Below are positions 1 through 45,381 of a stretch of DNA of 64,000 nt, in pieces. A program made the translations under genes and the position numbers. Below the pieces are notes generated by a model. That model made no database searches and was not told where the DNA came from. It worked only from the letters and a program-made list of their open reading frames with translations. The number at the start of each line of letters is the position of its first letter. Within the stretch, counting starts at the first letter, position 1. Origin of the DNA: Trypanosoma brucei. Lineage: Eukaryota. The stretch covers positions 544,001-608,000 of the forward strand of contig CP000071.1 of assembly GCA_000002445.1 (NCBI GenBank), in the 5' to 3' direction.

Positions 1-1385
1 ATTGCACGTCTGCAGGGCAGGAACGACCAACGTTTTTCGGAGAAACAGCGACATGTTCACAAGAAGACATTTTGACAGCCGCTAAGAGAGATATTGCCGT
101 CACGAAGCTTCTTCCTTCAGCTGTCCAGATGCATATGGATAGGTTACTCGTCGACCCTATAACTGAACCCCTTGTCTTTCCTCCATTTGATGGTTCGGTG
201 TGCTCTGAGTTCAAAGTACCGTCAAGTCATTTCTCAGAGGGCGTACCTGACGCTGATATGGTAATGTATGCTGCAGCGGGTCCAACGCCGGAGGGTGTGG
301 CTGCCTGGGCTACGGGTTGCATAACTCTTGACGATGGGCGTGCTGTGGCTGGCGTAACTAACCTTGGCCCCGGTTCCATTAGCCTGTCGGAGACCAGCAT
401 TCGCACAGCTGCTCATGAGATTGCCCACATCCTTGGGTTCAATTTCCGAGCGATGAACGATGCCGGTATGGTGCAAAGAATTCCCGGTGTTCGTGGAAAG
501 GTTGATGTGACACTCATTTCGTCACCCAGGACACTGCAGAAGGCCCGCGAACACTACAATTGTCCCGATGCCCCTGGAATGGAACTGGAGGACGAAGGTG
601 GTAGTGGCACCGCATTATCACACTGGGAGCGGCGCAATGCGAAGGATGAGATCATGTCTGGTATTTCTTCACCTGGTCGATACACAGCGCTAACGATGGC
701 GGCGTTTGAGGATCTGGGATATTACCGTGGTGCCTGGGGGAGCGAAGAACCTATGGGTTGGGGAAACAACTCTGGTTGTGAGCTACTCAACGAAAGCTGT
801 TTGGTGAACGGTGTGACAGCGCACCCGGATATGTTCTGCAACGAAACCGTGAGCAAGCTGGTTTGTAACTCGGAGCGAGATGGTCTTGGAAGGTGTAATG
901 TAATTAAGCATGAAAATCCACTTCCACCGCAATACCATTACTTTTCTGATCCTTCACGTGGTGCCCCCTCCCATCTCTTGATGGACTACTGCCCGTCCAT
1001 TGACGCGTTCTCCAACACGCCTTGTGCCGACGGCGAAACGAAATTCATGCGTGGAAGTTTGATAGGACCGTCGTCAATGTGTCTGAAGGCCGAGGGACTC
1101 CGTGACAGTCAGGGCGTCATTGGCGATGTTTGTGCGGATGTGCGGTGTGATGGTGGTGAAGTAAGCATTCGTTATCTTGGGGATGATGCATGGCATCCGT
1201 GCCCAGAAGGCAGTCACATCAAACCGACTACAACATTCACGGATGGCGTCATTGTTTGCCCGACTTACAGTGAGGTTTGTATCAAAGCAACAGTGGTTGT
1301 ACGCCCTTCTTCAGCCAGCTACCGTTCTTCAGTGCCGCAATCGCTGCTTCTCACCCTATTCGCTATAGTTTATGCTGCCTGTTAA
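1..1385 (+). CDS. GP63/leishmanolysin (major surface protease, MSP) family zinc metalloprotease. C-terminal 461 codons only. The gene begins upstream of the window.
   Basis: The frame is open from nt 3 to the stop at 1385. It has a HEIAHILGF zinc-binding HEXXH motif, many conserved Cys, and a hydrophobic C-terminus (LLLTLFAIVYAAC) consistent with a GPI-anchor signal. There is no start codon at the true N-terminus because the window edge cuts the gene. Confidence 0.85.
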   Translation, partial: CTSAGQERPTFFGETATCSQEDILTAAKRDIAVTKLLPSAVQMHMDRLLVDPITEPLVFPPFDGSVCSEFKVPSSHFSEGVPDADMVMYAAAGPTPEGVAAWATGCITLDDGRAVAGVTNLGPGSISLSETSIRTAAHEIAHILGFNFRAMNDAGMVQRIPGVRGKVDVTLISSPRTLQKAREHYNCPDAPGMELEDEGGSGTALSHWERRNAKDEIMSGISSPGRYTALTMAAFEDLGYYRGAWGSEEPMGWGNNSGCELLNESCLVNGVTAHPDMFCNETVSKLVCNSERDGLGRCNVIKHENPLPPQYHYFSDPSRGAPSHLLMDYCPSIDAFSNTPCADGETKFMRGSLIGPSSMCLKAEGLRDSQGVIGDVCADVRCDGGEVSIRYLGDDAWHPCPEGSHIKPTTTFTDGVIVCPTYSEVCIKATVVVRPSSASYRSSVPQSLLLTLFAIVYAAC

Positions 1386-2404
1386 ATGGCGTGACTATAG
1401 GTGTGGGGTTAAGCATCCGTTACTGTCCTTGGATGTTGCGTCAGAAATGGTTACTACATGCGATACGCAGGTTTTCCTTTTATACGAGTATTTTCCATTA
1501 CCACTTTGCAAGGTTGTTGTATTCCTTTCTTTTGTCTTTGTACACGTTTTTTTTAAATACTTTGTTTATTATACGCACAGAACCCTATGACTCCAGAGGT
1601 TGTATGGGGAGAATGTGTGTGCGAGCGTTATCGTCTGTTATTTCTTAGTCCAGTTGTCTGCGTTCTCACGGCAGAATCGTGGCAGCAGCGGGCACCTAAA
1701 CGATTTTAGGCCGCCACGTCGCGGTCGGCACTGATTCATCGTTAAATACATTTTTTAAATATAATTTTCGTATCGATAATGTTGATTTCAATTCCACTTT
1801 GCTCTTATCTACCTATATGTTAACAACACACTTCCGTTGTTGCATTTCACCACGGGTTTCGGGCGCTTATTCTCTCTTCCCCTTGTTCCTCCCATATGTC
1901 AAAAGGAAGCGGTTGATGATGTAGCAGAGGTGATTATTTCCAAAGCAAAAGATGCGGTGCATTTAATTTTTGTTCGGGTGGGAGGTTGTGGCGCTGCTGT
2001 GCTTATCCGTTTATACGGTTCCGTGTTGTTGGAGGTGCCTTGTGTATCATACATTTATATCTGCAGCTTCTTCGGTTGATTGAGGGTTGGGCTATGAAGA
2101 AGTGGACGATTTAGCTATTTGGTATGTGTAGGCAAACGTCGATGCCGAGTGCTACTGCGGGCTAACGTGAATATAAGAGAAAATCGTATCAGCATGCGCT
2201 CCACTACAATTGCTGTAACTCATTTTTTGCATCAGCAGCGCACGTGCTTGTGTACCCTTAACTCAACCGGCAACAACTAGTCTTCTTAAACTTGTGCTGG
2301 ACGCTGGCATGCTCTTAGCCATCCCGTAAATTTGTGGTGTTGTTGTTTTGCTTTATTGTTTAGCCGTTTTTACACGAAATTCCTGTTCGGTGCGTCAGTC
2401 GCCA

Positions 2405-2495
2405 TGGTTGTTTTCCTACACATCATGTGTTCGTCGTTGTAGCTTTCTCTTCCATTTTCTGTTTTTGTGTTTTTTTCGACATGCTTTCTGCATGC
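2405..2495 (+). promoter_or_regulatory. Polypyrimidine tract, probably the trans-splicing/polyadenylation signal upstream of the nodulin-like gene. AG dinucleotides follow at about 2499.
   Basis: A long C/T-rich run (tcttccattttctgtttttgtgtttttttcgacatgctttctg) lies 160-250 nt upstream of the ATG at 2659. This is the usual trypanosomatid mRNA-processing signal. Confidence 0.3.
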
Positions 2496-2658
2496 GCACA
2501 GAGAAGTGCACGAGCGGGGAAAGTGAAGCACAACGGTAGACTATTTGCTGAGTGTTGAGATTCCTCATTTGGTGGAAGCGTAGAAATACACGCGGTTATA
2601 CACAATACATTCGAGTGTATATATTTGCACCCCGTTTGTTCGTTTACCGCCGCCGGAG

Positions 2659-4434
2659 ATGAACTGCGCGGCGGACCACGTCGTTGAACGACTGCCTACG
2701 GCGCGGCAACAACCCGCCGGTGAGCCCCACCGATTTGGCCTGTTGGCCGTCGCCGCCTTCAGTTGCATATGCGTTTCGCTTACATATGGCTTCAACCTCA
2801 TATCTGGTGCAATGCAGGAGCGATATGGCCTCACCCAACGGGACTTGTCGACAATCAGTACTGTTGGCATTGCGGTTGGGTATTTTGGTTTGCCGTACAG
2901 TTTTATTTACGATCATTTCGGCCCGAAGCCCATCTACTTCCTGGGGTTGCTCTGCTACCTGCTGGGCACTGTGATGTTCGCGTTAACGTTTCAGGGAGTT
3001 ATTGAGGGTACTGTTTTACGACTTAGCATATACAACGCATCCGTGACTCTTGGTTGCTCAATGTTCGACATGGGTGCTTTGGTGACACTGTTGAGCGTTT
3101 TCCCCTCAAATCGTGGTGCCGTGGTGGCCATGCTGAAGACCTTAAATGGCCTCGGCGCAGCAATTGTAGGGAGCGTTCGGCTGGCTTTCTTCAGTGAGAA
3201 CACTTCTGCTTACTTTTACTTTCTGATGACCCTTGTAATTGTTATTGGGACGCTTGCCACCGCATATGTACGCCTCCCATCGTATCACCTTACAGGTTAC
3301 GAGGAGAATCATTTGAGTGAGGAGGAAAAGGTAAAACGGCTCATGAGGAAGGCCGTATACTTGCGGCAGAAGGCACCCACGTGGCGTTTCGTGCACGGTT
3401 TCGTCATCTTAATAGCACTCATTGTATTCCTCCCCACCCAGGGAGCGCTATTAGCTTACCTGAAGCTTGGTTCCGATTACAAGGTGGGATTCGCCGTCGT
3501 CACCATTATTCTGACGTTGTTGCTCCCCCTAATGGCGATCCCGACAACCAAATTCGATGGCAACAACCAGCGTATTGGCATCGATGATAAATCCCCCACT
3601 GAAGGTGCTGTTGGAAGTAACGATGGCGATTCGAGTGGTAGCAACGTAGTAGAAACAAACGTAGACTACATTGCGCCGCAGTTCCAGGAGTCATTTCTTG
3701 CTGGTTTGCGCACTCTGCGGCTCTGGTGCCTGATGTTTACAATATTCTTCTGTGCCGGTTCACTATTTGTTGTCATGTTCAATGCTCGTTACATCTACAC
3801 AGCTATGGTAGGTGAGGCCCCTGATGAGGCACTTAACACACTTCTTACTGTGCTTGGCGGTGCAGGCAGCGCCACGGGGAGGCTGGGGATGAGTTTTTTC
3901 GAAGTTTGGTCGCAGAAGCGTAAACCGGAACAGCGCGTTCCCATCACTGTTGTGCTTTTCATCCCGACAACCTTCGTCATCATTATGTTGACGATGTTCC
4001 TCACGGTCCCGAAGAGTGTTCTTCCTCTCTCGTATTTTATTGGCGCCCTTGCTAACGGATGCAACTCAGCTACAATCATTCTTGTGTCGCGGACAATATT
4101 TGCCAAGGACCCCGCCAAGCATTACTACTTCTGTTACATAGGTTCATTGTTGTCTGCCATCTTCCTCAACCGCTTGTTGTATGGCGAGTGGTACACGCAT
4201 GAGGCTGAAAAGCGTGGTGAAGTTGTATGCACGGATAAGGTGTGTGTGATGATGCCGATGATGCTGTTACTTGTTCTTTCTCTCTTGGCATTTGTAAGCA
4301 GTTCATATGTTCATGTGCAGTACCGCCGGCTCTGCACCAAAGCTTTGGAAGAGCGGCGCCGCATTCGTGAGGAAGAAGCTGCAGCGCGGAGGCAGCTCTC
4401 CGGTGCCACTGCAACGGCGGAACTTCCCAACTAA
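2659..4434 (+). CDS. Nodulin-like / major-facilitator-type polytopic membrane protein (591 aa)
   Basis: About 12 hydrophobic segments. The N-terminal half (GLPYSFIYDHFGPKPIYFLGLLCYLLG...) resembles the nodulin-like MFS domain annotated in kinetoplastids. There is a charged central loop and a C-terminal charged tail. Confidence 0.5.
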   Translation: MNCAADHVVERLPTARQQPAGEPHRFGLLAVAAFSCICVSLTYGFNLISGAMQERYGLTQRDLSTISTVGIAVGYFGLPYSFIYDHFGPKPIYFLGLLCYLLGTVMFALTFQGVIEGTVLRLSIYNASVTLGCSMFDMGALVTLLSVFPSNRGAVVAMLKTLNGLGAAIVGSVRLAFFSENTSAYFYFLMTLVIVIGTLATAYVRLPSYHLTGYEENHLSEEEKVKRLMRKAVYLRQKAPTWRFVHGFVILIALIVFLPTQGALLAYLKLGSDYKVGFAVVTIILTLLLPLMAIPTTKFDGNNQRIGIDDKSPTEGAVGSNDGDSSGSNVVETNVDYIAPQFQESFLAGLRTLRLWCLMFTIFFCAGSLFVVMFNARYIYTAMVGEAPDEALNTLLTVLGGAGSATGRLGMSFFEVWSQKRKPEQRVPITVVLFIPTTFVIIMLTMFLTVPKSVLPLSYFIGALANGCNSATIILVSRTIFAKDPAKHYYFCYIGSLLSAIFLNRLLYGEWYTHEAEKRGEVVCTDKVCVMMPMMLLLVLSLLAFVSSSYVHVQYRRLCTKALEERRRIREEEAAARRQLSGATATAELPN

Positions 4435-5932
4435 AGGAGTCGCAGTTTACTTACTTAATTTTCTTTTGGTTTGTTTCGAAGGTAATTTTCTTGCGTCTCC
4501 TGCGGCTTCGTGGTGAATTGTTATGAAGTGTGCGTAGATAAATAAATTTATTTTTAAAATTTCAAGTGTATTCCCCTCTGTGATACCATCATAATTGTTA
4601 TTTTTTGGCGTTCATTTACTTGCTTTTATTTTTTCCAGAGTGTGAAATCACAGAAGCAAAAATAAGGTAATCAAGTAAGATCTAAATGCGTTTTAAAGAG
4701 CTCTAATTTCTTGGCTTATTCACTTATTCGTTGATATTTTATTGAATAATCCTACATATTTTTGGCAGATGAATCAATTGCTTAATTATATATGTGTTTA
4801 TTTTGCGTTTTTTTTAAATGATATCTTTTATCGTTCCACTTATTTTTGGGGTGAGTGACTTCAGTGACTGACGTTATAAATGAAGAAAAATAAGAGTAGA
4901 ATTAATAATGTCGCGACGTCCTTCTCTTCTCTTTCATCCCACCCTTTTCGTTTTATTAAAAAAAATGAGATGGTAAAATGTCGCACTAGAGCACATGTCA
5001 GGATTGAAAGGAAAAGAAAAACTGTTAACTGCAACGTCGATATTAAAATTAAAGGAAAGGAAAAAGTACATACTAAATCAATAATTAAGATTGTTAGTGT
5101 TAAATGTTATTATGATAAAAGCGAGGCGGATCGTTATTTCAGCGGTGTTGGGCAACGTTAGGAATGACAGAACAAGAGCAATAAAAAAAGGAAGTAGCAG
5201 TGACTTGTCTGTTAGTGTATTTGCGTTCACTTCTGCACACCTCTGCACTTCATCGTTTCCTCTATTTCATTTCTTTATTAATTTTTTTTTCTTTAGATGA
5301 GGAAACCCCTTCGTTTTTTTCTTCTCACTCTCCATTTGGGAGGGGGAGCGGGCGGGTGAAGCGTTATCACAGTTTTGAAACGCACTAAATGCAGTGGTGA
5401 CATCGCGGTTCTACTTGTTTTACCTATTAGTGTATTTGTTTCTTCGCACACTCCTTAATCTCAATCACTTCAGATTACATATGCGACTTGTACCTTTTTC
5501 TTTTTTCATTGTAGAGGATCGTTTCTTCTTTTCTTTGATTGATTGATTGGTTTGCGTTTGTTTGCTTTAATTATGTTTGAACATTTTTCAAATTCAAGAT
5601 TAAAACGGGAAAAGTTGGACCACATGGCGCCGTAACTCAACCACATTACGTCGAGCAACTGAAGAAAATTGTAGCGCGTGATGAATAAATACAAACGACC
5701 AATAATCGGAAGCGTCAGTAACACCTCACGCATGACGCCACTTTGAATGCAATACTAATTATCTGACTCATATCCCCGTTTCCTCATTTTCCTCCTTTTT
5801 GTTTCTATTCCGTTACACCTCCGCTTCGCTCGTGGCATTCTTCCAGTGAGCGCACTTACGATGGATGGTGGAGGAAGAATATGAATGTGCAACACTTGCG
5901 TTCGTTGGCTTCGGATGCAACAACAATGGCTT

Positions 5933-6029
5933 TACCTCGATGATGTGTATGAGAACAAGCATATGTCCGAGCTGACCACAATTGTGGCACAATGAGAGCA
6001 TTACTCGAGTCCTTGAAAGCTGAGTGGTA
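5933..6029 (+). ncRNA. Candidate box C/D snoRNA, copy 1 of a repeated gene, with two guide elements against the 5' end of SSU rRNA
   Basis: Terminal stem tacc...ggta. C-box-like aTGATGT at 5940-5946. Antisense element aacaagcatatg at 5954-5965 followed by a degenerate D' CCGA at 5967-5970. C'-like aatgaga at 5991-5997. Antisense element agtccttgaaa at 6008-6018 immediately 5' of D box CTGA at 6020-6023. Confidence 0.45.
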
Positions 6030-6310
6030 TCGTACCTTTCTTTCTTTGCTTTAACTTATGATGCAAAGCAAATAAACAGCGGGGGAAACCTCGTCTCAAA
6101 ATGTGATTTTGCGTGAACGAGCGTTTTCAAGCGTCATCCACTGACTCATATCCCCGTTTCCTCATTTTCCTCCTTTTTGTTTCTATTCCGTTACACCTCC
6201 GCTTCGCTCGTGGCATTCTTCCAGTGAGTGCACTTACGATGAACGGTGGAGGAAGAATATAAATGTGCAACACTTGCGTTCATTGGCTTCGGATGCAACA
6301 ACAATGGCTT

Positions 6311-6407
6311 TACCTCGATGATGTGTATGAGAACAAGCATATGTCCGAGCTGACCACAATTGTGGTACAATGAGAGCATTACTCGAGTCCTTGAAAGCTG
6401 AGTGGTA
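6311..6407 (+). ncRNA. Candidate box C/D snoRNA, copy 2
   Basis: Identical box and guide architecture to copy 1, shifted by 378 nt. There is one SNP (c to t) outside the guides. Confidence 0.45.
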
Positions 6408-6688
6408 TCGTACCTTTCTTTCTTTGCTTTAACTTATGATGCAAAGCAAATAAACAGCGGGGGAAACCTCGTCTCAAAATGTGATTTTGCGTGAACGAGC
6501 GTTTTCAAGCGTCATCCACTGACTCATATCCCCGTTTCCTCATTTTCCTCCTTTTTGTTTCTATTCCGTTACACCTCCGCTTCGCTCGTGGCATTCTTCC
6601 AGTGAGCGCACTTACGATGGATGGTGGAGGAAGAATATGAATGTGCAACACTTGCATTCATTGGCTTCGGATGCAACAACAATGGCTT

Positions 6689-6785
6689 TACCTCGATGAT
6701 GTGTATGAGAACAAGCATATGTCCGAGCTGACCACAATTGTGGCACAATGAGAGCATTACTCGAGTCCTTGAAAGCTGAGTGGTA
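6689..6785 (+). ncRNA. Candidate box C/D snoRNA, copy 3
   Basis: Identical box and guide architecture, shifted by 756 nt from copy 1. Confidence 0.45.
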
Positions 6786-7022
6786 TCGTACCTTTCTTTC
6801 TTTGCTTTAACTTATGATGCAAAGCAAATAAACAGCGGGGGAAACCTCGTCTCAAAATGTGATTTTGCGTGAACGACCGTTTTCAAGCGTCATCCACTGA
6901 CTCATATCCCCGTTTCCTCATTTTCCTCCTTTTTGTTTCTATTCCGTTACACCTCCGCTTCGCTCGTGGCATTCTTCCAGTGAGCGCACTTACGATGGAT
7001 GGTGGAGGAAGAATATAAATGT

Positions 7023-7528
7023 GCACCCTGGCGATGCCGGTCACCTCAACGTGGTGCCAGGGTCCAGTACCCCGTATCATCGGGGGAAGCCAAGAGCCAG
7101 CAGCGTTCCTTTCATGGGGAACACTGCTGTGCTCCGGATACGGCATCATACAGCACAGGGATCAGCAGCGTCTTGTTGGGACACCGTTTTTCATTTGTCG
7201 GTCCCTGGGCACGTGCCAGCGTGCCATCAGCAGTATCATCCGCACTAAGATGCTGCTGTCCGGTGATGTGGAACTCCAAAAAAGGATTGCTAATTGACAT
7301 CTTTTGGAGTTCCGGGGTGGGAGGCTTCTCGCCCCATCTGCTGTATTCCGTTCATCTGCGGAAATACAACAAGAGTTATAGAGGGTGTGTTAGGATGAAT
7401 AAAAAAAGGGAGGCTCTGCCACAGTTGCCAGACCGATAGCATCTCAGGGCTCTACGGTGATGGCTGATGGCCGCGCCAGTGGGGGGAAACTCTCACGAAG
7501 GCACGAAGAAAATTAAATTAAATTAATT
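7023..7528 (+). mobile_element. RIME-like (ingi-family) non-LTR retroposon, about 0.5 kb, with a Pr77 5' signature and an A-rich 3' end
   Basis: The 5' end reads gcaccctggcgatgccggtcacctcaacgtggtgccagggtccagtaccccgtatcatcgggggaagccaagagccagcagcgttcc. This matches my recollection of the conserved 5' 77-80 nt of T. brucei ingi/RIME, T. cruzi L1Tc/NARTc and SIDER. The element has no long ORF and ends in gaagaaaattaaattaaattaatta. Its length of about 505 bp fits RIME. Confidence 0.75.
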
Positions 7529-10500
7529 ATTCTTACCAGAATACCCTCTATTTTTCGCGTTGTTTCCCTTTTTTCATCGCAGTCGCTAGCCGGCTGAAAT
7601 GGTTTCATGCTTCCATTATAAAGCGGGCCATGGTGGCCCCCTCTTTCCCGTCAGGGGGGATCGTTTGTTGCGGTATGCCGAGTATAACGTGCGAGCCCGC
7701 CTCGGTGTGTTTTGGGGGTTTGACCGTCTTTCCGATTGTTCTGCCTCCTCATTCCGTTCCTTTCACCTCACAGCCGTAATGATGTCTTTCCCTCACTCCA
7801 AGGCGCTGTTGTGGCGTCAGGTTGTTCCGCGCGCCTTTTTTTCCGCCTACACTATCGTTTTACCTGGTCCAACCAAGTAAAATCGTGAATTGGAACGCCG
7901 GCTTTAGCCCCTTCTTCGGTTGGTTCCACTATGTGTTTATATCCGTCGCGAAGTCCCGCTTTTTTAATATCGCAGGACCTGTGGCTTACAGCGGGGGAAA
8001 GGGACGATGGATCAGTGTACGGTGATGCGCTCCTCCCTCTTTTCGGCCGTTTTCTCGCAATATCCATGACGGCTGCGCGCCAACCTCCTATCACTAGAAT
8101 TTCTGCTCCGTGGCTAAGTGTCAGTTTCCGCACCCCTTGCCAGTGGTTTTTCCTTTTTTGCTCCCTCTCTCCGGGATGCCGGCGACACAGTCCCTGACGA
8201 GCTGTTGAGCGCTGCTGCTCCGCCAGCCCGTTTCCGACCTGCTTCCCGAAACCATGTCACAGTCTTCGGTGACTTTTTACACTTTTTACTCTATCCCTGT
8301 TTGCCTTCAGCTCTTCGGGGCGCCGTTCAATCAAAGAGGTCCTCCCCACCAATATTGCCGCGGCAGTTGCACCGTCATCTGAAAAGACAAACCAGCCGGT
8401 TCTCGAAAGAAGGCATGTCGGATTGCTGATTTTTTCTCTTCACAGGCCCACTGACAACTTATTCACTTCCCCTTCCCCCGCCCCTTCCGCCAAGAGTAAA
8501 GTTCATCGACGCGTGGATGCGCTACCCGTTGTTTTTTTCTCTTTGTCATTTTGCTTTTGCGGACAGTGGCCCACTGAGTTTGAGTGGAGCTGCGGAGGCG
8601 CTCTGTAATGTGTTGGGGAAGTTGAAATCGGTGTATGCCTTCGTCCAAGCGAAAACTAGGTATGCAGCCGAGAAAGTGAGGGAGTTTGAGGATATGGTGG
8701 AGTTGGTGAGGTCGAAGATTGCGAGGGGCAGGAAAAACGGGGAAAGACGATAATAACCGCACCTCGTGCACGAGCATTGAAAAGTTTTCGGATTGTGGAC
8801 GGAGCGTGGGATAGGTGGGCCGGAGGGCGAGGGAACGGAGAGTGCTGAGGTGTGTATTGGATACGCAGCCGTGAAGGATGCTGAGCAAAGGGAGGTTTTG
8901 AGGCGGCATGAGGCTCGACGAAATGGTGGCTGCGCTCGGGAATCTGTAAAAAAATACTGAAAATTATTTATGGTTGATGTACTCGAGAACACCGCGGGAA
9001 GAACTTACCACCAAGCTGCTCCGCCGGAACAGAGCGAAACGAAAGGGCAGTATAGTGGGAATCCATCAAAACCATGGGGGACGTAGCTGCTTCTCCTTCG
9101 GACAAATCATACGCAATGAGTTTGGAGGGTGCAGGGAGCTGGCCTGTGCATGGGTGGGGGTTGGAGACGCAACGACGGTTTTGGAGGAATTCGGGCTTTC
9201 TGCTTGATGCTGTTGGAAAGAATTGCGGCGGGAACAAAATTGGAGAAAATGATCCCATCTGCAAAGCATCATTTTTTGTGGAAATGCTGACCTGCTCGGA
9301 ATTGTGTAATTGGAAAAAGGCGGCCCCCAAAGAGATGGCAACCCACTCGGCACATAATACGAAAAAGGCACGTGTATATACATATATATGATGGTGATGG
9401 TAAGGAAAGAAGCAATGAAGGAACCCACACGGTACGAAGAAGCGAAAAAAAAATCCACAACAACCATTCAAAACTCTAATTAATACAAAAAAAGAGAGGG
9501 ATGTGTAGTGAAAACTTCTCACAAAATCCCATATTTCGCTTCGTTAAAGAAAAGCTGTATGTGGGGAAAGACGTTAGTGATAGAGAAAACCCCGTTGCTG
9601 GTACCGTGGGTGATATGGGTGAGTGGAAAAGGGGAGAGGAACACGAAAAGAGCGTGGAAGACTGGGTGGCTTGGGTGCCGCACTCACTCCCACCTCCTAC
9701 GAAACCCCACGGAATGATGACCAAACGATGGGTGCAGAAGCCAAAGGTCAGAAGAATCGCACAAAATGAAATACTGTGACGCTGTCGTGTGCATCGTGGA
9801 TGTCTCGTCCCTGAATTCGCCTAAGCCATCCTTTTGGATTTTGCCATACTAGTCTGGTTTTCAGTTGCACAGCAGAGGGGCCACTTCAACAGCTCAGCCC
9901 ACTAACAGGGAAATGCTGGGGACTGGCATGCGATTTCCTGGGAAAGAGGGGGGGGTCTTGAATACGTGGTGGGGTGCATCAACACAACTTGTTGGGAATA
10001 ACACTGATTGCCCGAGCGGCAGCGAGCACCACGACCGAGGACCCATGTGGGTATACAATGGGGAACCTGCGCCATCGCTGATGTCAAAAGCACGGCGTCG
10101 TAACCACGGATATACAGAAGTTGTGGGCTGTACGCTTTGATGCGTGTATACGCATAACAGCGAAGAAGCGTACAAGAGCGTAAGTTTACCAATGAAAGTC
10201 AGCAACACGTGCATCACTACCATCGCTACTTTGCGTTTAGTCGCACCACCTCACCGTTTTAGGGCTTTCTTCAAGCAGCAGCTACCAAAATTACTTCCCA
10301 CTTTACTGGCTCCTAACCTGCAAAGATCCATTGGCAGTGTATCCACGCACTGCACTTTTAGTTTATCGGTTGTAACCTTTCCATTAGCACCAGTTTTCAC
10401 TCCGAACCTCCTTCAGTGTCTGCCGCGCCGGCTTGCATACAGAAGTAAGAGGATTAAGATCCTTTCCTTTTACTTCTGACAACCCTGAGTTGCCTCTGGT

Positions 10501-11011
10501 CGATAGGCCCACACATATTGGGAAAAGCCCTACCAAATTTGGAAAAAGAGATCTAAAGAGTATGATCCTTTAGTAGAGTTTTAACCAAAACGTCGTTGAT
10601 TGTGAAGTAACATTCGGAGGATGAACGTGAATGTCGCTCAAATAAAGCAGATCTTCGCTTTTAGCAGCCCCAAGCGATGCTTGTTATTTCATTGGCGGCA
10701 AGCATGTCTAGGCAACTGTTGCTTTTCTTTGTACTGCCGCCAAGCTTATCGTCGGAAAATCTTTATGGGAATATATTGTCCGTAAAGCGTGCAGCCCCAT
10801 GCTGAGCCGTTCAGTCGGTAATACACATTACGCTGCATTCTCTTGCCTTCCACGGTTGTTCAAATACAACCGAAAAGGCGCGTCATTCAGGGATGGCAGC
10901 TCCGGGTCATGAGGATGGGATGCACCTCCACTGGATACAAACACACATACCGTATAAAATATGCTGTGAGAGCCGGCTCTACCGTTTTTGCCGACCGATC
11001 GAGGCGCTCAT

Positions 11012-11395
11012 CTATACATCTCGCGTGTTGAAAAAAGCGCCCAACTTTCTCGGCTCATACGGTATTTCGTACTGCTTTTTCTTGAGGTTGCTCAGTCTTT
11101 CGAGGAATACACAATTTTCTTGGTAGGCGTCACCAAGCTCAATGAACCGCTGCCTTTCTGCAGCACCCAACGCCCCCAGACTCAACTCCTTCAGAAATAG
11201 GGAGTTCATCTCGTTGCAAAACTTTTGTCGTTCCCCCTCCACTTTTTCCTTCATCCTCCCGAGTACATCTTCGACCTCCCACATACGCCACCGACGGTCA
11301 GGTGTAAAGGTGCGTCTTCTAACCTCGCTGTCCCTTCCCAAAAGGCAATAAGTCAGCATAACACTTTGACTAACGACCCGGCGAGGAACAAACAA
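11012..11395 (-). CDS. Small hypothetical protein (127 aa or shorter), charged and helical. It may be the last gene of the minus-strand transcription unit.
   Basis: This ORF looks more protein-like than its neighbours in the strand-switch region (…ERQKFCNEMNSLFLKELSLGALGAAERQRFIELGDAYQENCVFLERLSNLKKKQYEIPYEPRKLGAFFNTRDV). I recognise no family. Confidence 0.3.
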   Translation of the reverse strand: MFVPRRVVSQSVMLTYCLLGRDSEVRRRTFTPDRRWRMWEVEDVLGRMKEKVEGERQKFCNEMNSLFLKELSLGALGAAERQRFIELGDAYQENCVFLERLSNLKKKQYEIPYEPRKLGAFFNTRDV

Positions 11396-14244
11396 TTTTA
11401 GCTACAAAGAGCGCCTGCGACAACCCCTAAAATTTTAAAATTTACTTCAGACTCATGGAGTAAAACACCAATTTCGACTGCAGCTAAAGAGGCTGCAAGA
11501 CGTCATTACACTGCTTCAACAGTAAACAAAAGATAAAGCGAAAGACTTCCACCATAACAACGACGTAAAAAACAACTGAACTAACATAACCTTCTCCCAT
11601 AATCCCCCCTCCGCTTAACGGTGGCTTCCGCCCCTGCAAATCTTCCCGCCGAAAGTTGCTTCGGAGGAATGGCCCCGCATTACTACTGCAAAACTTCCCG
11701 GTAATACATTTCACCCTGGGGGCGGTGGGTAATCTATCTTTCCGGTGCCGTCCTGCCAATGCGTTAAACCAACATCATTAAATATACACCAACTTGTAGT
11801 TAAACACGTTGTCCACAACCGCACTCACAACAACTCAGATCACGTCAAACCCCTCTCGCATACCCTCTTCAACTTTCTCGAATGAACCACATTCCCCCCC
11901 TCCCACTTCTGAAAGCACTGGTGACGACCCTCGCGAATATAATATGCACTATTCACTCCGACGCGCTGTTGAAGAGGAGCCCAGTGGCAGAACTCACATT
12001 ACTGTTAATTGTTGCATTTGAAGCGTGTTCACCCTTATCACGCATCCCAAATGCCCCAGACGAGGAACGAGAGACCCTTTACAAGGCACAAGGACAAACC
12101 CTACAGCATGAGAAAACAACACCTTTTTTTGTCCGTTAGCGTCGCAACCCCTCAGTGGTTGGAGATCTCGAGACGCTTGAAACGCATAGATACTCCAATA
12201 CCTAATGCGGGCTTAACAATGAGATATTCTGCGAGATTCACCACTAAAGTCACAGTCTTTACTGCATCCCTACACGCTGCAGAGCCCAACTTTCTCTCCT
12301 CCTCCCGCGCCAACTTCCATTCCCAAGGACGCTCCCGGTATGTGAAATGAATATATAAATCCTCTTCCCCTGGAGCTCATCATCCATTCCCCAAGAATAT
12401 GCCCGCTTGTGAGCATTCATGTACTTACATACCCTAAAACCACCCCACAATCGAACCACTTGCTATTAAGTTACCGAAGTAGAAACGATAATATTAACGG
12501 TGCTATTACTCTTAACGATTCGGAGCGATTGAAAGCGCCCTGACTTTAATAGCGTTCTGTTAACTTTATAACCGCCCTTCTACCGCGTGACAACGCACTA
12601 AAGGAACGCAGTCATTTTGTTGCGGACTATTGTGGTGCTGGAAACGGCAAGGGGGCGATGACGAGGGAACTACTTACGATAAGATTATTACGTCGCTGAC
12701 GCTCCCATTACCCCCACTTCTACTCTCCCCTTCCCCAAACAATACACGCAACACACAAAAGCCTCCAGAATAAACCACTTTATCTCCAAACTTCGATTAG
12801 GATTTGCACTTCCCCAACTCAACATGGTTCACCTTTATTTTGCCTTCCCAACTCCCTCTTGAACGTCACTGCGCATTCATTACGGGGGCATCGGTTAAGA
12901 GGTAAAAAAAAACGCTGGCAAAACGGAACCTTCAAATCCACTCAGGTAACACACTCATTACTTGCGTGTTGTTATCACTCTCTCGTCCACAGCGTTCTTC
13001 TAACAAGAGCACAGGACATTGACATGCGGTAACGTGGAACATTCAAAAACTGCAGATTGGTTGAGGTAAAAAATAAAACAGGAAATGAAACAAAAACAAA
13101 TTCCAACAGAAAAGAACAGGACCATCGGAAGGAGACTCCTTTCACTTGGGGCTTTCAATATGATACGAATGAGCGCAATTATTTAATTCACTTGCGGAAG
13201 CTTTCCTTTTTATCGCAGCCATTTGAGTGGAGCCTCTTTCAAACCCCGACCCAAGACGTGGCGGGGGGGGACCGTTTGTTTCCCTATTGTGGGCCTGTAG
13301 AAGCTGAATGAAAACAAGTGAGTTCCCCCCTCCGTTCCATCGTTAAATAAACACCGAGCAGAGGCTGGCCATATTTAGTTGTGAAGCGGTTCCGTTATAA
13401 TTCCTCGCGGCACAGCACAAATTAGCAGTTTAACTTTCACCTCTTTTTTTTCTTTCATGATCTTTTCACACCGGAACGAGATCATGTGCACTCGAAACTA
13501 CTACACTCCGAAAAAAAGGGAGGCCCATCCAAGCGCGAACAAAGGTGGGAGGAAGAAACTAAGAGGGGGAAAAGAAAAAGTCTATAGGTATGAGAGAGTA
13601 AATGGAGAAAATAATGAAAAATAGGGGAGAAGGGGACAAACAAACACACACACACAAAAAACAAACAAACAAACAGAAACGGTAGGGAATGTTGCAAAGG
13701 CGTATCGGAAGGCAAATCGCCAACGGAGACCCCTCCTGTTAGGAAATGAGAGGTGAAAAGGAGCACTAATCCACACATGCACAAATACATCCTCGCATAG
13801 GAATGATAGTGAACCGAAGGGAAGGTAAGAAGGAACAAACGCACATATACACACATACACACCAAACCCCGCCACGCCCGATATCCCCGCAACGGTTGTG
13901 GCCAGCCCTCGCAAAACCCTCCTCGTGTCTAAAAAAAAGAAAAACTCCACCAAACACGGGACGGGCAAGAGGAACTTCACCATGAAGCGTATACATAAAA
14001 ATATCACCGTGCCATGTTGCACGTATCCAAAAAGGGGTGTGATAATACAAAAATGAAGAAGTGAAGGGGTGGGGATTGGAAGGACGCCTCGGCACAACAC
14101 CGCAACAGAAGGGGAAAACTATGAAAAAATATTGAAAGGGGGAGACAAAAAGAGACGCGACAAAGGGGGAGGGTGTGGAAAGAGAGTCAGAAACGAAATA
14201 GCAGCCGATGGAATGACTGTTGGTTAACCGACGGAGCCACCACC

Positions 14245-16023
14245 TCACTGCACAGCAGGTGCGAAGTAACGCACATGATCGGGGAGAACAATTTCGACTG
14301 AAACGTCCGCGCCGCCTTCGCTCTTCCCTCTAGCTTTCTTTTGTCTCATTGCTTTAGCTTTCTGCTCGCGTATCATCTCTAACATCTTAGCTCGCTCCTG
14401 CTCACGTTTCGCACGCTGCGCCTGCCGCTCTTCCTCTCGCTGGGGTGAATGCCGTAAAGGAGAAAGTTGTCTGCAGGCAGAGCCCGTGCTTTTTATCCGT
14501 ATGAATCCTTGAGCCGCTAAATGGTTAACCAGTGAAGGCTCGCGTGCGAAGGGCGAGTGCCTCCTACTCGGCCGTGCTGCACATGCCGCCTGCTTGGGCC
14601 GCTTGCCCTTCGCGATCCCTACCGACACCACTGACAAATCTGCAGGACTAACCGCCTCTACATCAGACCGGGTGTTCTGCCGATTCTGCTGCTTCTCTTC
14701 ACGTGGCGCCACCGCTACTTTCCGGCCGGCCCTCAGCCCCTTTTGTGGTGTGGCGCCTTTTCTTACGGAAGTGTCAACTTTAGATGCCACAGCACATGGC
14801 TGTAAGCCATCTTGTGACCCACCTTGGCTCTCTACAGGTCCCTCCGCGATTAAAATATCGTCGGCCGGGCGGAACTTTTGCAGGTAAGACTCAATGAATT
14901 TAACATCGTTGTTACGTGCGTGGATCCACTGGGACAGCTGGCTCTCCCCACTACTATCAGAGGAACCTGCTGCGTGCCCTATCGGTCCTCGTTTGGCCTG
15001 CCGTGGTTGCTGCTTCCGCTGCTTCTGCGGCAATTTTTGCGGCGTTCCCTCCTGTTGTGCCTCCAGTTCCGGTTGTCGCTGTGGGTGGAGATGTTGGGGC
15101 TTCTTATGCACCATTACGGAAGCATGCAGTGCCCGCTTGGGGCCAAGCGCCCGCTGTTGCTGTTGCTGCTGTTTTTTTAGTACTACCTTACGGTGTCGGG
15201 GTGAGGATGCCTTTTCATCCGGCGTTACCGCAGCCGTTGTTTGGCGTACTTGGATTGCCCGTTCTGTCATCTCCATTACCTTTTCCAGCCCATACCGCTT
15301 GTTGGGGTCTGTCTGCAGCATCCCCATAATAATTGCCTGAATATCCTCCGGGACGGCAGCCGGGAGCGGGGCGATATCACCCGCTGTTATCTGCCGCACG
15401 AGACTGGCGAAACTGTCGGATGAAAAGGGACGACGCAGACACGCCATCTCGTAAAAGACACAACCGAGTGACCAAACATCCGACGGATAACTGTACGGCA
15501 TACCTAAAAGTAACTCCGGTGACAACCAAATGGGTGACCCAACGAAAGTGGTCGTGAGAGATGCGGATCCCGACATGGCCTTAGAGGATCCAAAGTCGCC
15601 CAAGTATAGCTCCGATGCATCGGCGTTCACAAATACATTCCCGGGTTTGACGTCCCTGTGCATGATACTCAGCCCGTGGCAACACTTCAGTGCCGATATG
15701 AGCTGCTGGAAACCACGGAGAAGCGCAAGATGGGGAAGGGCCTTCTTCCGCCGCGCAAGGCGCTCCAGATGAGACTCCAGATCACCGCCCTCCGCATACT
15801 GCAGCACAACGTAAAGCCCGCCGTCGTGAACAAAAGACTCCAAGTATGGAATAATGTTAGGGTGCCGCGCCCGCATGGACACATTTACCTCCTGCATCCC
15901 CTGTGTTCCATCAGCCAAACGTTTAATAACGACGCGCTTCGTCTCATTTTGTTTGTCAACCGCGAGATATGCACCACTCGTGCCCCCTAGCTGCCGTATA
16001 ACGGTGTAGTGATCCATCCCCAT
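14245..16023 (-). CDS. Serine/threonine protein kinase, NEK-like (592 aa). N-terminal kinase domain plus a basic/Gln-rich C-terminal tail.
   Basis: Kinase subdomains are present: glycine loop LGGTSGAYLAV, VIK, HRDVKPGNVF, DFG, and SPE...DVWSLGCVFYE. A poly-Q and Arg/Lys-rich tail follows. Confidence 0.8.
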   Translation of the reverse strand: MGMDHYTVIRQLGGTSGAYLAVDKQNETKRVVIKRLADGTQGMQEVNVSMRARHPNIIPYLESFVHDGGLYVVLQYAEGGDLESHLERLARRKKALPHLALLRGFQQLISALKCCHGLSIMHRDVKPGNVFVNADASELYLGDFGSSKAMSGSASLTTTFVGSPIWLSPELLLGMPYSYPSDVWSLGCVFYEMACLRRPFSSDSFASLVRQITAGDIAPLPAAVPEDIQAIIMGMLQTDPNKRYGLEKVMEMTERAIQVRQTTAAVTPDEKASSPRHRKVVLKKQQQQQQRALGPKRALHASVMVHKKPQHLHPQRQPELEAQQEGTPQKLPQKQRKQQPRQAKRGPIGHAAGSSDSSGESQLSQWIHARNNDVKFIESYLQKFRPADDILIAEGPVESQGGSQDGLQPCAVASKVDTSVRKGATPQKGLRAGRKVAVAPREEKQQNRQNTRSDVEAVSPADLSVVSVGIAKGKRPKQAACAARPSRRHSPFAREPSLVNHLAAQGFIRIKSTGSACRQLSPLRHSPQREEERQAQRAKREQERAKMLEMIREQKAKAMRQKKARGKSEGGADVSVEIVLPDHVRYFAPAVQ

Positions 16024-44910: not shown

Positions 44911-45381
44911 TCAGCGGAGCAGGCGACAACCCGGAGTAAAGAACTGCATCCTACTGGCATCCGGCACTATACGCCAGGAGCCAATATTAATACTGCGGAA
45001 CTCTTGGCAGCAGGCACACGGGGCACAGCAACAGAAGACACAGAAAAAGTCACCAATGATATTCCCAGATGTGCCAGTACGCTTGCGGAGGTTGTAACGT
45101 GTGAACCAGCGGGCGCATGGACAAAGGAGAACCATGAGGCAATGCGGCCAAACGGAACACACATCGCCCAAACTCGACGCATATGTTTTGCACAAGATAC
45201 AAGGTGAACAGAATAAACAGTTGAAGATGCAGAGAAGTGCGTTGGCAAAATCAGGGGCGCCGCAGCAGGGCGCCAATCGCCAAAACTCCCAAACGAATCC
45301 GGCGGTACCATTCCAGCCGCATTGGTCAAAGCCAATGATACCGAGGAACCCCGTACGGTTAATCTCAGCGCAAAGAGACAT
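44911..45381 (-). CDS. PLAC8 (FCR/cell-number-regulator-like) cysteine-rich small protein, 156 aa
   Basis: Cys-rich pattern CLFCSPCILC...LLCPCARWF...GDFFCVFCCCAPCACCQEFRSI. This matches the PLAC8 CCxxCxxxQ..RE C-terminal motif. Confidence 0.5.
   Translation of the reverse strand: MSLCAEINRTGFLGIIGFDQCGWNGTAGFVWEFWRLAPCCGAPDFANALLCIFNCLFCSPCILCKTYASSLGDVCSVWPHCLMVLLCPCARWFTRYNLRKRTGTSGNIIGDFFCVFCCCAPCACCQEFRSINIGSWRIVPDASRMQFFTPGCRLLR

What the first reader, a model, noticed from the sequence alone, without database searches (positions are those of the whole stretch)
5763..7025. The 378-bp tandem array looks like a box C/D snoRNA gene cluster with dual guides to the 5' end of SSU rRNA
Each repeat carries, on the plus strand, a complete box C/D layout: a 4-bp terminal stem, box C aUGAUGU, D', C' and D. 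Both antisense elements map to adjacent sites in the same rRNA region. I quote that region from memory as the conserved trypanosomatid 18S 5' end: …GTAGTCATATGCTTGTTTCAAGGACTTAGCC…. The element aacaagcatatg is complementary to CATATGCTTGTT (12 bp). With the degenerate D' box CCGA, the '5th nucleotide' rule places the methyl on the A equivalent to human 18S Am27 / yeast Am28. The element agtccttgaaa directly abuts box D CUGA and is complementary to TTTCAAGGACT (11 bp). That would target the C of GUUUC*AAGG about 10 nt downstream. Two independent 11-12-nt matches to neighbouring rRNA sites, both with correct spacing to D'/D, are unlikely by chance. Trypanosomatid snoRNAs are typically encoded in tandemly reiterated clusters processed from polycistronic Pol II transcripts, and this array lies just downstream of the plus-strand gene cluster. 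Inter-copy SNPs fall almost entirely in the spacer (unit offsets +85 to +140), not in the candidate RNA. That pattern suggests constraint on the RNA. A second, weaker C/D-like candidate lies at about 6055-6146 in each unit, with aUGAUGC near 6059 and CUGA at 6141. I could not place targets for its guides.
Basis: partly seen in the sequence, partly recalled or inferred. Interest (0 to 1): 0.7.

Follow-up and report, generated by a model that had tools for sequence, protein, structure and literature searches.

The report
Known T. brucei snoRNA cluster TB8Cs2

Summary
A 378-bp unit is repeated 3.3 times at 5763-7025 with 98% identity. Each full unit carries a C/D-box RNA whose two antisense elements pair with adjacent sites at nt 25-45 of kinetoplastid SSU rRNA, with the right spacing to D' and D.

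The interpretation also holds, but it is not new.
- **Identity:** Rfam finds the H/ACA snoRNA TB8Cs2H1 once per unit (78-81 bits, threshold 40). The flanking gene is 100% identical to a T. brucei brucei TREU927 protein on a 2.48-Mb contig (chromosome 8 by its size, from memory).
- **Published targets:** RiboMeth-seq tables assign TB8Cs2C1 to SSU A56 and C66.

Corrections and additions:
- The "weaker" candidate is TB8Cs2C2, which guides LSU-alpha Um1448.
- A single-copy C/D RNA just upstream (5678-5766) fits TB8Cs2C0, which guides SSU Um2054.
Two of its variable positions lie in the guide pocket and separate the published isoforms H1A (copy 2) and H1B (copies 1, 3, 4).
- The SNP distribution shows no depletion in the RNAs.
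- A RIME-like element cuts off the array at 7026.

The parts
5763..7025 (+). Tandem array of 3.3 units of 378 bp. Each unit carries H1, then C1, then C2. The fourth unit is cut off after H1.
   Evidence: TRF; repeat families; per-copy differences.
5678..5766 (+). Single-copy C/D snoRNA upstream of the array, best fit TB8Cs2C0. Box C GUGAUGA 5678-5684. D' guide cgaccaauaau 5696-5706 abuts D' CGGA 5707-5710. C'-like AUGACG about 5732-5737. Box D CUGA 5763-5766, which is also the first 4 nt of the TRF array. The fifth nucleotide a5702 pairs with the U of AUUAU*UGGUCG in the SSU 3' domain.
   Evidence: Sequence. The 11-nt complement occurs in 7 kinetoplastid-type SSU loci. Anchoring it as 2054 reproduces the published 2096 A, 2123 U and 2134 C in 7/7 loci and 2154 U in 5/7. 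PMC9283944 assigns SSU_2054 (U) to TB8Cs2C0. The name assignment is an inference, because no published sequence could be read.
5815..5881 (+). H/ACA-like snoRNA TB8Cs2H1, copy 1, H1B type. Single hairpin with pocket strands UUCGC 5825-5829 and UGGAUG 5862-5867. AGA box 5876-5878.
   Evidence: Rfam RF01549, 81.5 bits, full length 1-65. Hairpin fold z = -2.2.
6193..6259 (+). TB8Cs2H1, copy 2, H1A type. The 3' pocket strand reads UGAACG instead of UGGAUG. C to U at 6229 turns an A-C mismatch in the upper stem into an A-U pair.
   Evidence: Rfam, 78.3 bits. The published H1A primer TATTCTTCCTCCACCGTTCA, described as complementary to positions 47-67, is the exact reverse complement of 6240-6259. 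Fold z = -3.8.
6571..6637 (+). TB8Cs2H1, copy 3, H1B type.
   Evidence: Rfam, 81.5 bits.
6949..7015 (+). TB8Cs2H1, copy 4, H1B type. It is the last RNA gene before the array is cut off.
   Evidence: Rfam, 81.5 bits.
5933..6029 (+). C/D snoRNA TB8Cs2C1, copy 1, a dual guide. The D' guide targets SSU Am56 (human Am27 / yeast Am28). The D guide targets SSU Cm66.
   Evidence: PMC9283944 Table 2; PMC3542256.
6311..6407 (+). TB8Cs2C1, copy 2. It has one difference (C to T at 6366), between the internal hairpin and C', outside the boxes and guides.
6689..6785 (+). TB8Cs2C1, copy 3.
6053..6149 (+). Box C AUGAUGC 6058-6064. D guide aagcgucaucca 6129-6140 abuts box D CUGA 6141-6144. The fifth nucleotide a6136 pairs with the U of UGGAU*GACGCUU in LSU rRNA.
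   Evidence: A 12-nt perfect complement occurs in the LSU of 6 rDNA loci. In L046 the target U is LSU nt about 1352. PMC9283944 assigns LSUa_1448 (U) to TB8Cs2C2, with NOP1 silencing lowering it from 0.64 to 0.09.
6431..6527 (+). TB8Cs2C2, copy 2.
6809..6905 (+). TB8Cs2C2, copy 3. It has one difference (G to C at 6877), 8 nt upstream of the guide.
7026..7525 (+). RIME/ingi-like retroposon that ends the array. It is not part of the snoRNA system and marks the array's boundary.
   Evidence: The sequence starts CCCTGGCGATGCCGGTCACC and has an A-rich 3' end. The identification is from memory only and was not confirmed by any tool.

Best explanation
The array is the T. brucei snoRNA gene cluster TB8Cs2.

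**Gene content.** Each 378-bp unit encodes three small nucleolar RNAs on the + strand:
- H1, a single-hairpin H/ACA-like pseudouridylation guide with an AGA box.
- C1, a C/D-box methylation guide.
- C2, a second C/D-box methylation guide.

A fourth C/D RNA, C0, lies once, just upstream of the array.

**Expression (established knowledge for trypanosomatids, not tested here).** The units are transcribed by Pol II as part of the + strand polycistron. The individual RNAs are then cut and trimmed out and assembled into snoRNPs.

**Mechanism.**
- C1 pairs its 5' guide with SSU CAUAUGCUUGUU(U). The fifth nucleotide upstream of D' (CCGA) faces the A, giving Am56.
- C1 pairs its 3' guide with UUUCAAGGACU. 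The fifth nucleotide upstream of D (CUGA) faces the C, giving Cm66.
- C2 uses its D guide for LSU-alpha Um1448.
- C0 uses its D' guide for SSU Um2054.
- H1 presents a pocket (UUCGC with UGGAUG or UGAACG) 14 nt upstream of the AGA box to isomerise a U in the LSU 3' part.

**Shown versus inferred.** The sequence anatomy, the complementarity and its geometry, the Rfam identity of H1 and the chromosome of origin are shown here. The methylation sites and their NOP1 dependence come from the literature. Transcription, processing and RNP assembly are inferred.
For: - **H1 and organism.** Rfam RF01549 TB8Cs2H1 hits four times at 78-81 bits against a threshold of 40. ORF 2659-4434 is 100% identical to a T. 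b. brucei TREU927 protein on a 2,481,190-bp contig.
- **C1 geometry.** The guides form a 13-bp duplex (one G-U) and an 11-bp duplex with nt 25-45 of SSU rRNA; SSU identity was Rfam-confirmed for L015 and L046.
- **C1 against published sites.** The predicted A and C are 10 nt apart, as are the published SSU_56 A and SSU_66 C assigned to TB8Cs2C1. RiboMeth-seq scores are 0.59 and 0.34, and NOP1 silencing lowers SSU_56 to 0.38 (p = 0.024).
- **Register check.** With the predicted A set to 56, the neighbouring published sites 36 U, 46 C and 125 A fall on the right bases in 7/7 loci.
- **Homology.** TB8Cs2C1 is listed as the homologue of U27/snR74. The SNORD27 model aligns colinearly with box C, guide and D'.
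- **C2.** A 12-bp complement occurs in the LSU 5' half of 6 loci, with a U at the fifth position. The published target is LSUa_1448 U, which falls from 0.64 to 0.09 on NOP1 silencing.
- **C0.** An 11-bp complement occurs in the SSU 3' domain, with a U at the fifth position. The register reproduces the published 2096, 2123 and 2134 bases.
- **H1 isoforms.** The published H1A primer matches copy 2 exactly. H1A and H1B are listed with RPKM values of roughly 800-8,600 in both life stages.
- **Background.** Outside the array, 3 of about 389 CTGA sites have an 11-nt complement to the rDNA reference.
Against: - T. brucei rRNA itself was not available. Targets were checked on environmental kinetoplastid-type rDNA plus published position tables, not on the organism's own sequence.
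- The published sequences of TB8Cs2C0, C1 and C2 (Liang 2005; Rajan 2020) could not be read. The names are assigned from the cluster, the order of genes and the targets.
- SSU_66 has low stoichiometry (0.34) and did not fall on NOP1 silencing (0.32).
- The C/D RNAs show no significant fold (z = -0.5, -1.1 and +0.7) and the terminal stem is only 4 bp. This is normal for C/D RNAs but gives no structural support.
- The SNORD27 score of 18.9 bits is far below the gathering score of 52.
Confidence: 0.96

Rival explanations
1. The array is a non-functional satellite-like tandem repeat, and its box-like motifs and rRNA complementarities are chance matches.
For: The C/D RNAs have no significant secondary structure. 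The D' and C' boxes are degenerate. Inter-copy variation shows no depletion in the RNAs.
Against: - Four independent guide-target duplexes of 11-13 bp all have the right spacing to a D or D' box, and all land on published Nm sites with the right base.
- Rfam finds a full-length H/ACA snoRNA in every unit at about twice the gathering score.
- The background rate of such complementarity at CTGA sites is below 1%.
Confidence: 0.01
2. C1 acts mainly as a base-pairing chaperone or processing factor for the 5' end of 18S pre-rRNA, and methylation is secondary, at least at C66.
For: - The two guides cover 21 contiguous nucleotides of the extreme 5' end of SSU rRNA.
- SSU_66 is only 0.34 methylated and is insensitive to NOP1 silencing.
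- PMC9283944 notes that several T. brucei C/D snoRNAs function in pre-rRNA processing.
Against: - TB8Cs2C1 is not among the processing snoRNAs listed there.
- SSU_56 does drop on NOP1 silencing.
- The site and guide are conserved with U27/snR74, which are methylation guides (role from established knowledge).
- Both duplexes obey the fifth-nucleotide rule.
Confidence: 0.08
3. The 5' guide of C1 uses the perfect CUGA at 5972-5975 as its D' box rather than CCGA at 5967-5970, which would shift or abolish the predicted target.
For: A canonical CUGA lies 5 nt downstream of the degenerate CCGA.
Against: - With CUGA at 5972, the fifth upstream nucleotide (c5967) lies outside the duplex.
- The published site is the A predicted with CCGA.
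- SNORD27's own D' aligns with CCGA, and the same 1-nt spacer follows the same guide.
Confidence: 0.02

Closest known systems
T. brucei snoRNA cluster TB8Cs2 (TB8Cs2C0, H1A/H1B, C1, C2), from the Michaeli-laboratory catalogues; H1 is Rfam RF01549
   Same: - The organism and chromosome match.
- H1 matches the Rfam model over its full length.
- The H1A primer matches copy 2 exactly.
- The predicted targets of C1, C2 and C0 match the published targets in base identity and register.
   Different: Nothing detected. The only caveat is that the published C0, C1 and C2 sequences could not be read and compared base by base.
Human SNORD27 (U27) / yeast snR74 (18S Am27 / Am28 guide)
   Same: C1 has the same target residue and the same 5' guide core, ACAAGCAUAUG, followed by one spacer nucleotide and D'. 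The Rfam model aligns colinearly, and the literature lists the two as homologues.
   Different: - The score of 18.9 bits is well below the gathering score of 52.
- D' is CCGA rather than CUGA.
- C1 carries a second guide upstream of box D, for a C 10 nt downstream.
- C1 is encoded in a tandemly repeated mixed C/D and H/ACA cluster. U27 is, from general knowledge, encoded in an intron of a host gene.
Trypanosomatid single-hairpin H/ACA-like (AGA-box) snoRNAs
   Same: H1 is one hairpin of about 67 nt with an internal pseudouridylation pocket. Its AGA box lies 3 nt from the 3' end and 14 nt downstream of the pocket.
   Different: Nothing atypical for the class. It differs from the canonical two-hairpin H/ACA RNAs of yeast and mammals.

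Membership tests
C/D-box snoRNA (C1, C2, C0) | Box C (RUGAUGA) near the 5' end and box D (CUGA) near the 3' end | tested here: met
   C1 has AUGAUGU 5940-5946 and CUGA 6020-6023. C2 has AUGAUGC 6058-6064 and CUGA 6141-6144. C0 has GUGAUGA 5678-5684 and CUGA 5763-5766. In C1 and C2 the last box C position deviates from the consensus.
C/D-box snoRNA (C1, C2, C0) | Short terminal stem that brings boxes C and D together | tested here: inconclusive
   C1 has 4 bp, TACC 5933-5936 with GGUA 6026-6029, set 3 and 2 nt away from the boxes. No clear stem was found for C2 or C0. The folds are not better than shuffles.
C/D-box snoRNA (C1, C2, C0) | Internal D' and C' boxes | tested here: met
   Both are degenerate. 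C1 has D' CCGA 5967-5970, which aligns with SNORD27's CUGA, and C' AUGAGAG at about 5992-5998. C0 has D' CGGA 5707-5710.
C/D-box snoRNA (C1, C2, C0) | An antisense element of at least 10 nt ending 0-1 nt upstream of D or D', with the fifth nucleotide facing a 2'-O-methylated rRNA residue | tested here: met
   The duplexes are 13 bp and 11 bp for C1, 12 bp for C2 and 11 bp for C0. The predicted residues are the published Nm sites SSU_56 A, SSU_66 C, LSUa_1448 U and SSU_2054 U, with the register confirmed.
C/D-box snoRNA (C1, C2, C0) | A stable RNA of about 70-100 nt bound by NOP1/fibrillarin, NOP56, NOP58 and SNU13 | not testable with these tools
   There is only indirect support from the literature. 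NOP1 silencing lowers SSU_56, LSUa_1448 and SSU_2054.
TB8Cs2 cluster of T. brucei | Located on T. brucei chromosome 8 and contains TB8Cs2H1 | tested here: met
   The flanking protein is 100% identical to a TREU927 protein on a 2.48-Mb contig. RF01549 hits four times. The H1A primer matches exactly.
TB8Cs2 cluster of T. brucei | Sequence identity with the published TB8Cs2C0, C1 and C2 RNAs | not tested
   Liang 2005 (PMC1370750) and Rajan 2020 (PMC7549662) are not held. The assignment rests on gene order and targets.
Rfam SNORD27 (RF00086) | Covariance-model score at or above the gathering score of 52 bits | tested here: not met
   The score is 18.9 bits, E = 1.9 to 6.9. C1 is a functional homologue by target and guide, but not a member by Rfam's criterion.
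Trypanosomatid H/ACA-like snoRNA (H1) | Single hairpin with an internal pocket, an AGA box about 14-16 nt from the pocket and 3 nt from the 3' end | tested here: met
   The Rfam structure alignment gives the pocket strands UUCGC and UGGAUG, followed by a 7-bp lower stem, one nucleotide and AGA. Folds give z = -2.2 and -3.8. The 3' end lies 3 nt after AGA, from the primer coordinates.
Trypanosomatid H/ACA-like snoRNA (H1) | Pocket complementary to rRNA on both sides of a mapped pseudouridine | tested here: inconclusive
   The H1A pocket fits AGCGUUCA-U-A-GCGAC in the LSU 3' region of 6 kinetoplastid-type loci, with 6 + 4 bp. Chikne 2016 lists H1A and H1B as LSU3 guides, but the positions are blank in the held table. 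T. brucei LSU was not available.

The most novel reading that the evidence does not exclude
The tandem array may act as a small workshop for guide diversification.
- One of the four H1 copies carries two substitutions in the 3' pocket strand, plus a stem-stabilising change. This would redirect it to a different LSU uridine than the other three copies.
- The unexplained antisense regions, namely the D-side of C0 (5745-5762) and the D'-side of C2, could guide modification of non-rRNA targets.

The literature has already raised both ideas in outline, with H1A and H1B listed separately and the orphan C2 D' domain discussed. Only the specific targets would be new.
Probability: 0.1. Interest if true: 0.3.

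Novelty: already known. Interest (0 to 1): 0.08.

Why it matters
It matters little as a discovery, because the cluster, its RNAs and their rRNA targets are already catalogued and mapped experimentally in T. brucei. The value lies in calibration. A tool-free reading correctly predicted both methylation targets of a dual-guide snoRNA. It missed the H/ACA gene, and so mistook guide-pocket variation between isoforms for spacer polymorphism.

Tried and rejected
- **Primary catalogues.** Liang 2005 (PMC1370750) and Rajan 2020 (PMC7549662) are not held, so the published snoRNA sequences could not be compared base by base.
- **Window's own genomic record.** Exact-sequence look-up of the MFS protein found no record.
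- **Cross-species synteny.** I fetched loci for the T. theileri and T. grayi relatives of the MFS protein (L121, L122). These belong to a tandem array of MFS/nodulin-like (PAD-family) genes with a different gene neighbourhood, and they carry no C1 guides. I ran no further search on the downstream kinase, because the answer would not change the verdict.
- **C0 D-side guide.** Its first-guess exact target gave no match. Only a 10-nt match in a variable LSU region of 2 loci turned up, which I judged unconvincing. The D' guide proved to be the functional one.
- **C2 guide.** The 15-mer had no exact match. A 12-mer matched after loosening the search.
- **Multi-locus Rfam call.** It failed internally, so I ran single loci instead.
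- **RIME identification.** A literature string search for the RIME-like 5' end found nothing, so that identification stays memory-based.
- **Another candidate.** A CTGA site at 44914 on the minus strand has rDNA complementarity but no box C upstream, so it is a chance match.
Full report
**1. The observation**

Tandem Repeats Finder reports one array at 5763-7025 with period 378, 3.3 copies, 98% matches and no indels. There are no further copies anywhere in the 64-kb window.

In copy 1 the candidate reads as follows:
- stem TACC 5933-5936
- box C AUGAUGU 5940-5946
- antisense (g)aacaagcauaug 5953-5965, one spacer nucleotide, then D' CCGA 5967-5970
- a palindromic hairpin 5976-5987
- a degenerate C' at about 5992-5998
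- antisense aguccuugaaa 6008-6018, one spacer nucleotide (g6019), then box D CUGA 6020-6023
- stem GGUA 6026-6029

**2. Are the targets real, and beyond chance?**

No rRNA lies in the window. I therefore scanned metagenome contigs for the 21-mer CATATGCTTGTTTCAAGGACT, which joins both predicted sites. At least 120 contigs carry it.

In two long contigs Rfam places it at nt 25-45 of a eukaryotic SSU rRNA: L015 (SSU 3101-5168) and L046 (SSU 2947-5072, LSU 5607-9359). Most contexts have the 5' end GATCTGGTTGATTCTGCCAGTAGT, which I take to be kinetoplastid-type from memory.

The D' guide forms 13 contiguous pairs (one G-U) and the D guide forms 11. The fifth nucleotides face the A of CAUA*UG and the C of UUUC*AAGG, 10 nt apart.

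As a background, I tested all 395 CTGA sites in the window (both strands). Outside the array only three have an 11-nt perfect complement to a 7.6-kb rDNA reference, and one of those is poly-A. The a priori chance is about 5e-4 for a given 12-mer and about 2e-3 for an 11-mer.

**3. What it is**

Rfam at gathering thresholds finds the H/ACA snoRNA family TB8Cs2H1 (RF01549) once per unit, at 5817-5878, 6195-6256, 6573-6634 and 6951-7012. The hits are full length and score 78-81 bits against a threshold of 40.

The upstream ORF 2659-4434 is an MFS/nodulin-like protein. It is 100% identical to a T. brucei brucei TREU927 protein on a 2,481,190-bp contig, which is the size of chromosome 8 (the size-to-chromosome link is from memory). 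The array is therefore snoRNA cluster 2 of chromosome 8, TB8Cs2.

Published RiboMeth-seq data (PMC9283944, Table 2) assign the following sites:

| Site | Base | Score | After NOP1 silencing | snoRNA |
|---|---|---|---|---|
| SSU_56 | A | 0.59 | 0.38 | TB8Cs2C1 |
| SSU_66 | C | 0.34 | 0.32 | TB8Cs2C1 |
| LSUa_1448 | U | 0.64 | 0.09 | TB8Cs2C2 |
| SSU_2054 | U | 0.93 | 0.73 | TB8Cs2C0 |

PMC3542256 lists TB8Cs2C1 (SSU Am56) as the homologue of yeast snR74 (Am28) and human U27 (Am27).

As a register check I set the predicted A to 56 in seven kinetoplastid-type SSU sequences. The other published sites then fall on the right bases in 7 of 7 loci: 36 U, 46 C, 66 C and 125 A.

The Rfam SNORD27 model aligns colinearly with box C and ACAAGCAUAUGUC[C/U]GA. 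This supports CCGA as D'. The score is only 18.9 bits against a threshold of 52.

**4. The rest of the unit**

- It has box C AUGAUGC 6058-6064 and box D 6141-6144.
- Its D guide aagcgucaucca (6129-6140) abuts box D.
- The guide is perfectly complementary to UGGAUGACGCUU in the LSU 5' half of six rDNA contigs. In L046 the target U is about LSU nt 1352.
- The fifth nucleotide faces a U, in agreement with the published LSUa_1448 U.

*Immediately upstream of the array lies a single-copy C/D RNA at 5678-5766.*
- Its box D is the first four bases of the TRF array.
- It shares only box D and the 3' flank with C2.
- Its D' guide cgaccaauaau (5696-5706, abutting CGGA) pairs with AUUAUUGGUCG in the SSU 3' domain of seven loci, and the fifth nucleotide faces a U.
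- Setting that U to 2054 reproduces the published 2096 A, 2123 U and 2134 C in 7/7 loci and 2154 U in 5/7.
- I therefore identify it as TB8Cs2C0. This is an inference from position and target.
- Its D-side antisense region has no convincing rRNA target in these loci. For C2, PMC9283944 reports that no target has been predicted for the D'-side domain.

**5. The "spacer SNPs"**

Eight unit offsets vary among the copies: 89, 102, 104, 121, 138, 142, 226 and 359.
- Offsets 89, 102 and 104 lie inside H1, and all three distinguish copy 2 from the others.
- Offsets 102 and 104 change the 3' strand of the pseudouridylation pocket from UGGAUG to UGAACG.
- Offset 89 converts an A-C mismatch into an A-U pair in the upper stem.

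Chikne et al. 2016 (PMC4855143, supplementary tables) list TB8Cs2H1A and TB8Cs2H1B as separate LSU3 guides, both expressed in procyclic and bloodstream forms. Their H1A primer is the exact reverse complement of 6240-6259, which makes copy 2 H1A and copies 1, 3 and 4 H1B.

The H1A pocket fits AGCGUUCA-U-A-GCGAC in the LSU 3' region of six loci. The H1B strand would pair with CGUCCA, a variant seen at the same place in two loci. Without T. brucei LSU I cannot say whether the two isoforms hit one site or two.

One variable position lies in C1, outside the boxes and guides. One lies in C2, 8 nt upstream of the guide. Overall 5 of 8 variable positions fall in the 69% of the unit that is RNA, and C1 has 1 against 2.05 expected (P = 0.35). 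The SNP pattern therefore gives no evidence of constraint. In a homogenised tandem array it would be weak evidence in any case.

**6. Context**

- The + strand carries a GP63/leishmanolysin gene (72-1385) and the MFS gene (2659-4434), followed by the snoRNA genes.
- From 14245 onward every ORF of at least 250 aa is on the minus strand.
- The cluster therefore sits at the end of a + strand transcription unit, at a convergent strand switch. This is compatible with the usual polycistronic Pol II expression and processing of trypanosomatid snoRNA clusters. That expression mode is established knowledge and was not tested here.
- The fourth unit is cut at offset 129 by a sequence beginning CCCTGGCGATGCCGG and ending in an A-rich tail near 7525. 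I recognise it from memory as a RIME/ingi retroposon.
- I saw no target-site duplication, and the array does not resume downstream.

**7. Verdict**

The feature is an already catalogued and experimentally characterised snoRNA cluster. Nothing in the anatomy departs from the known class. Interest is low.

Remaining uncertainty is limited to three points:
- base-by-base confirmation against the published C0, C1 and C2 sequences
- the exact LSU targets of H1A and H1B
- the two orphan antisense regions

Noticed in passing
window 7026-7525 (+): A RIME/ingi-like retroposon cuts the fourth repeat unit at offset 129. It starts CCCTGGCGATGCCGGTCACCTCAACGTGGTGCCAGGG and has an A-rich 3' end. I saw no target-site duplication, and the array does not resume downstream. 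The identification is from memory and was not confirmed by a tool.
   Followed up: partly
window 5862-5867 versus 6240-6245 (and 5851 versus 6229): Copy 2 of the H/ACA snoRNA differs from the other three copies at two positions of the 3' guide-pocket strand (UGGAUG to UGAACG) and at one stem position. This corresponds to the published isoforms TB8Cs2H1A (copy 2) and TB8Cs2H1B (copies 1, 3, 4). Whether they target the same or different LSU uridines could not be settled without T. brucei LSU rRNA.
   Followed up: partly
window 5678-5766 (+): A single-copy C/D snoRNA, best fit TB8Cs2C0, lies just upstream of the array. Its box D and 3' flank (CTGACTCATATCC...) are identical to those of C2, so the TRF array boundary falls exactly on its box D. 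The rest of the RNA is unrelated to C2.
   Followed up: yes
window 5745-5762 (C0, D side) and 6065-6100 (C2, D' side): These are orphan antisense regions. The C0 D-side region has no convincing complement in kinetoplastid-type rDNA, only a 10-nt match in a variable LSU region of two loci. For the C2 D' domain, the literature says no target has been predicted and suggests non-rRNA targets; I did not scan it separately.
   Followed up: partly
window 1-16000 and beyond: The snoRNA cluster sits at a convergent strand-switch region. GP63 (72-1385) and an MFS/PAD-like gene (2659-4434) lie on the + strand. A stretch of about 6.7 kb (7.5-14.2 kb) has no convincing ORF. From 14245 onward there are only minus-strand genes, the first being a protein kinase at 14245-16023.
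   Followed up: partly
window 5972-5975 (+): A perfect CUGA lies 5 nt downstream of the functional degenerate D' box CCGA of C1. The published target and the SNORD27 alignment both argue that it is not used as D'.
   Followed up: yes
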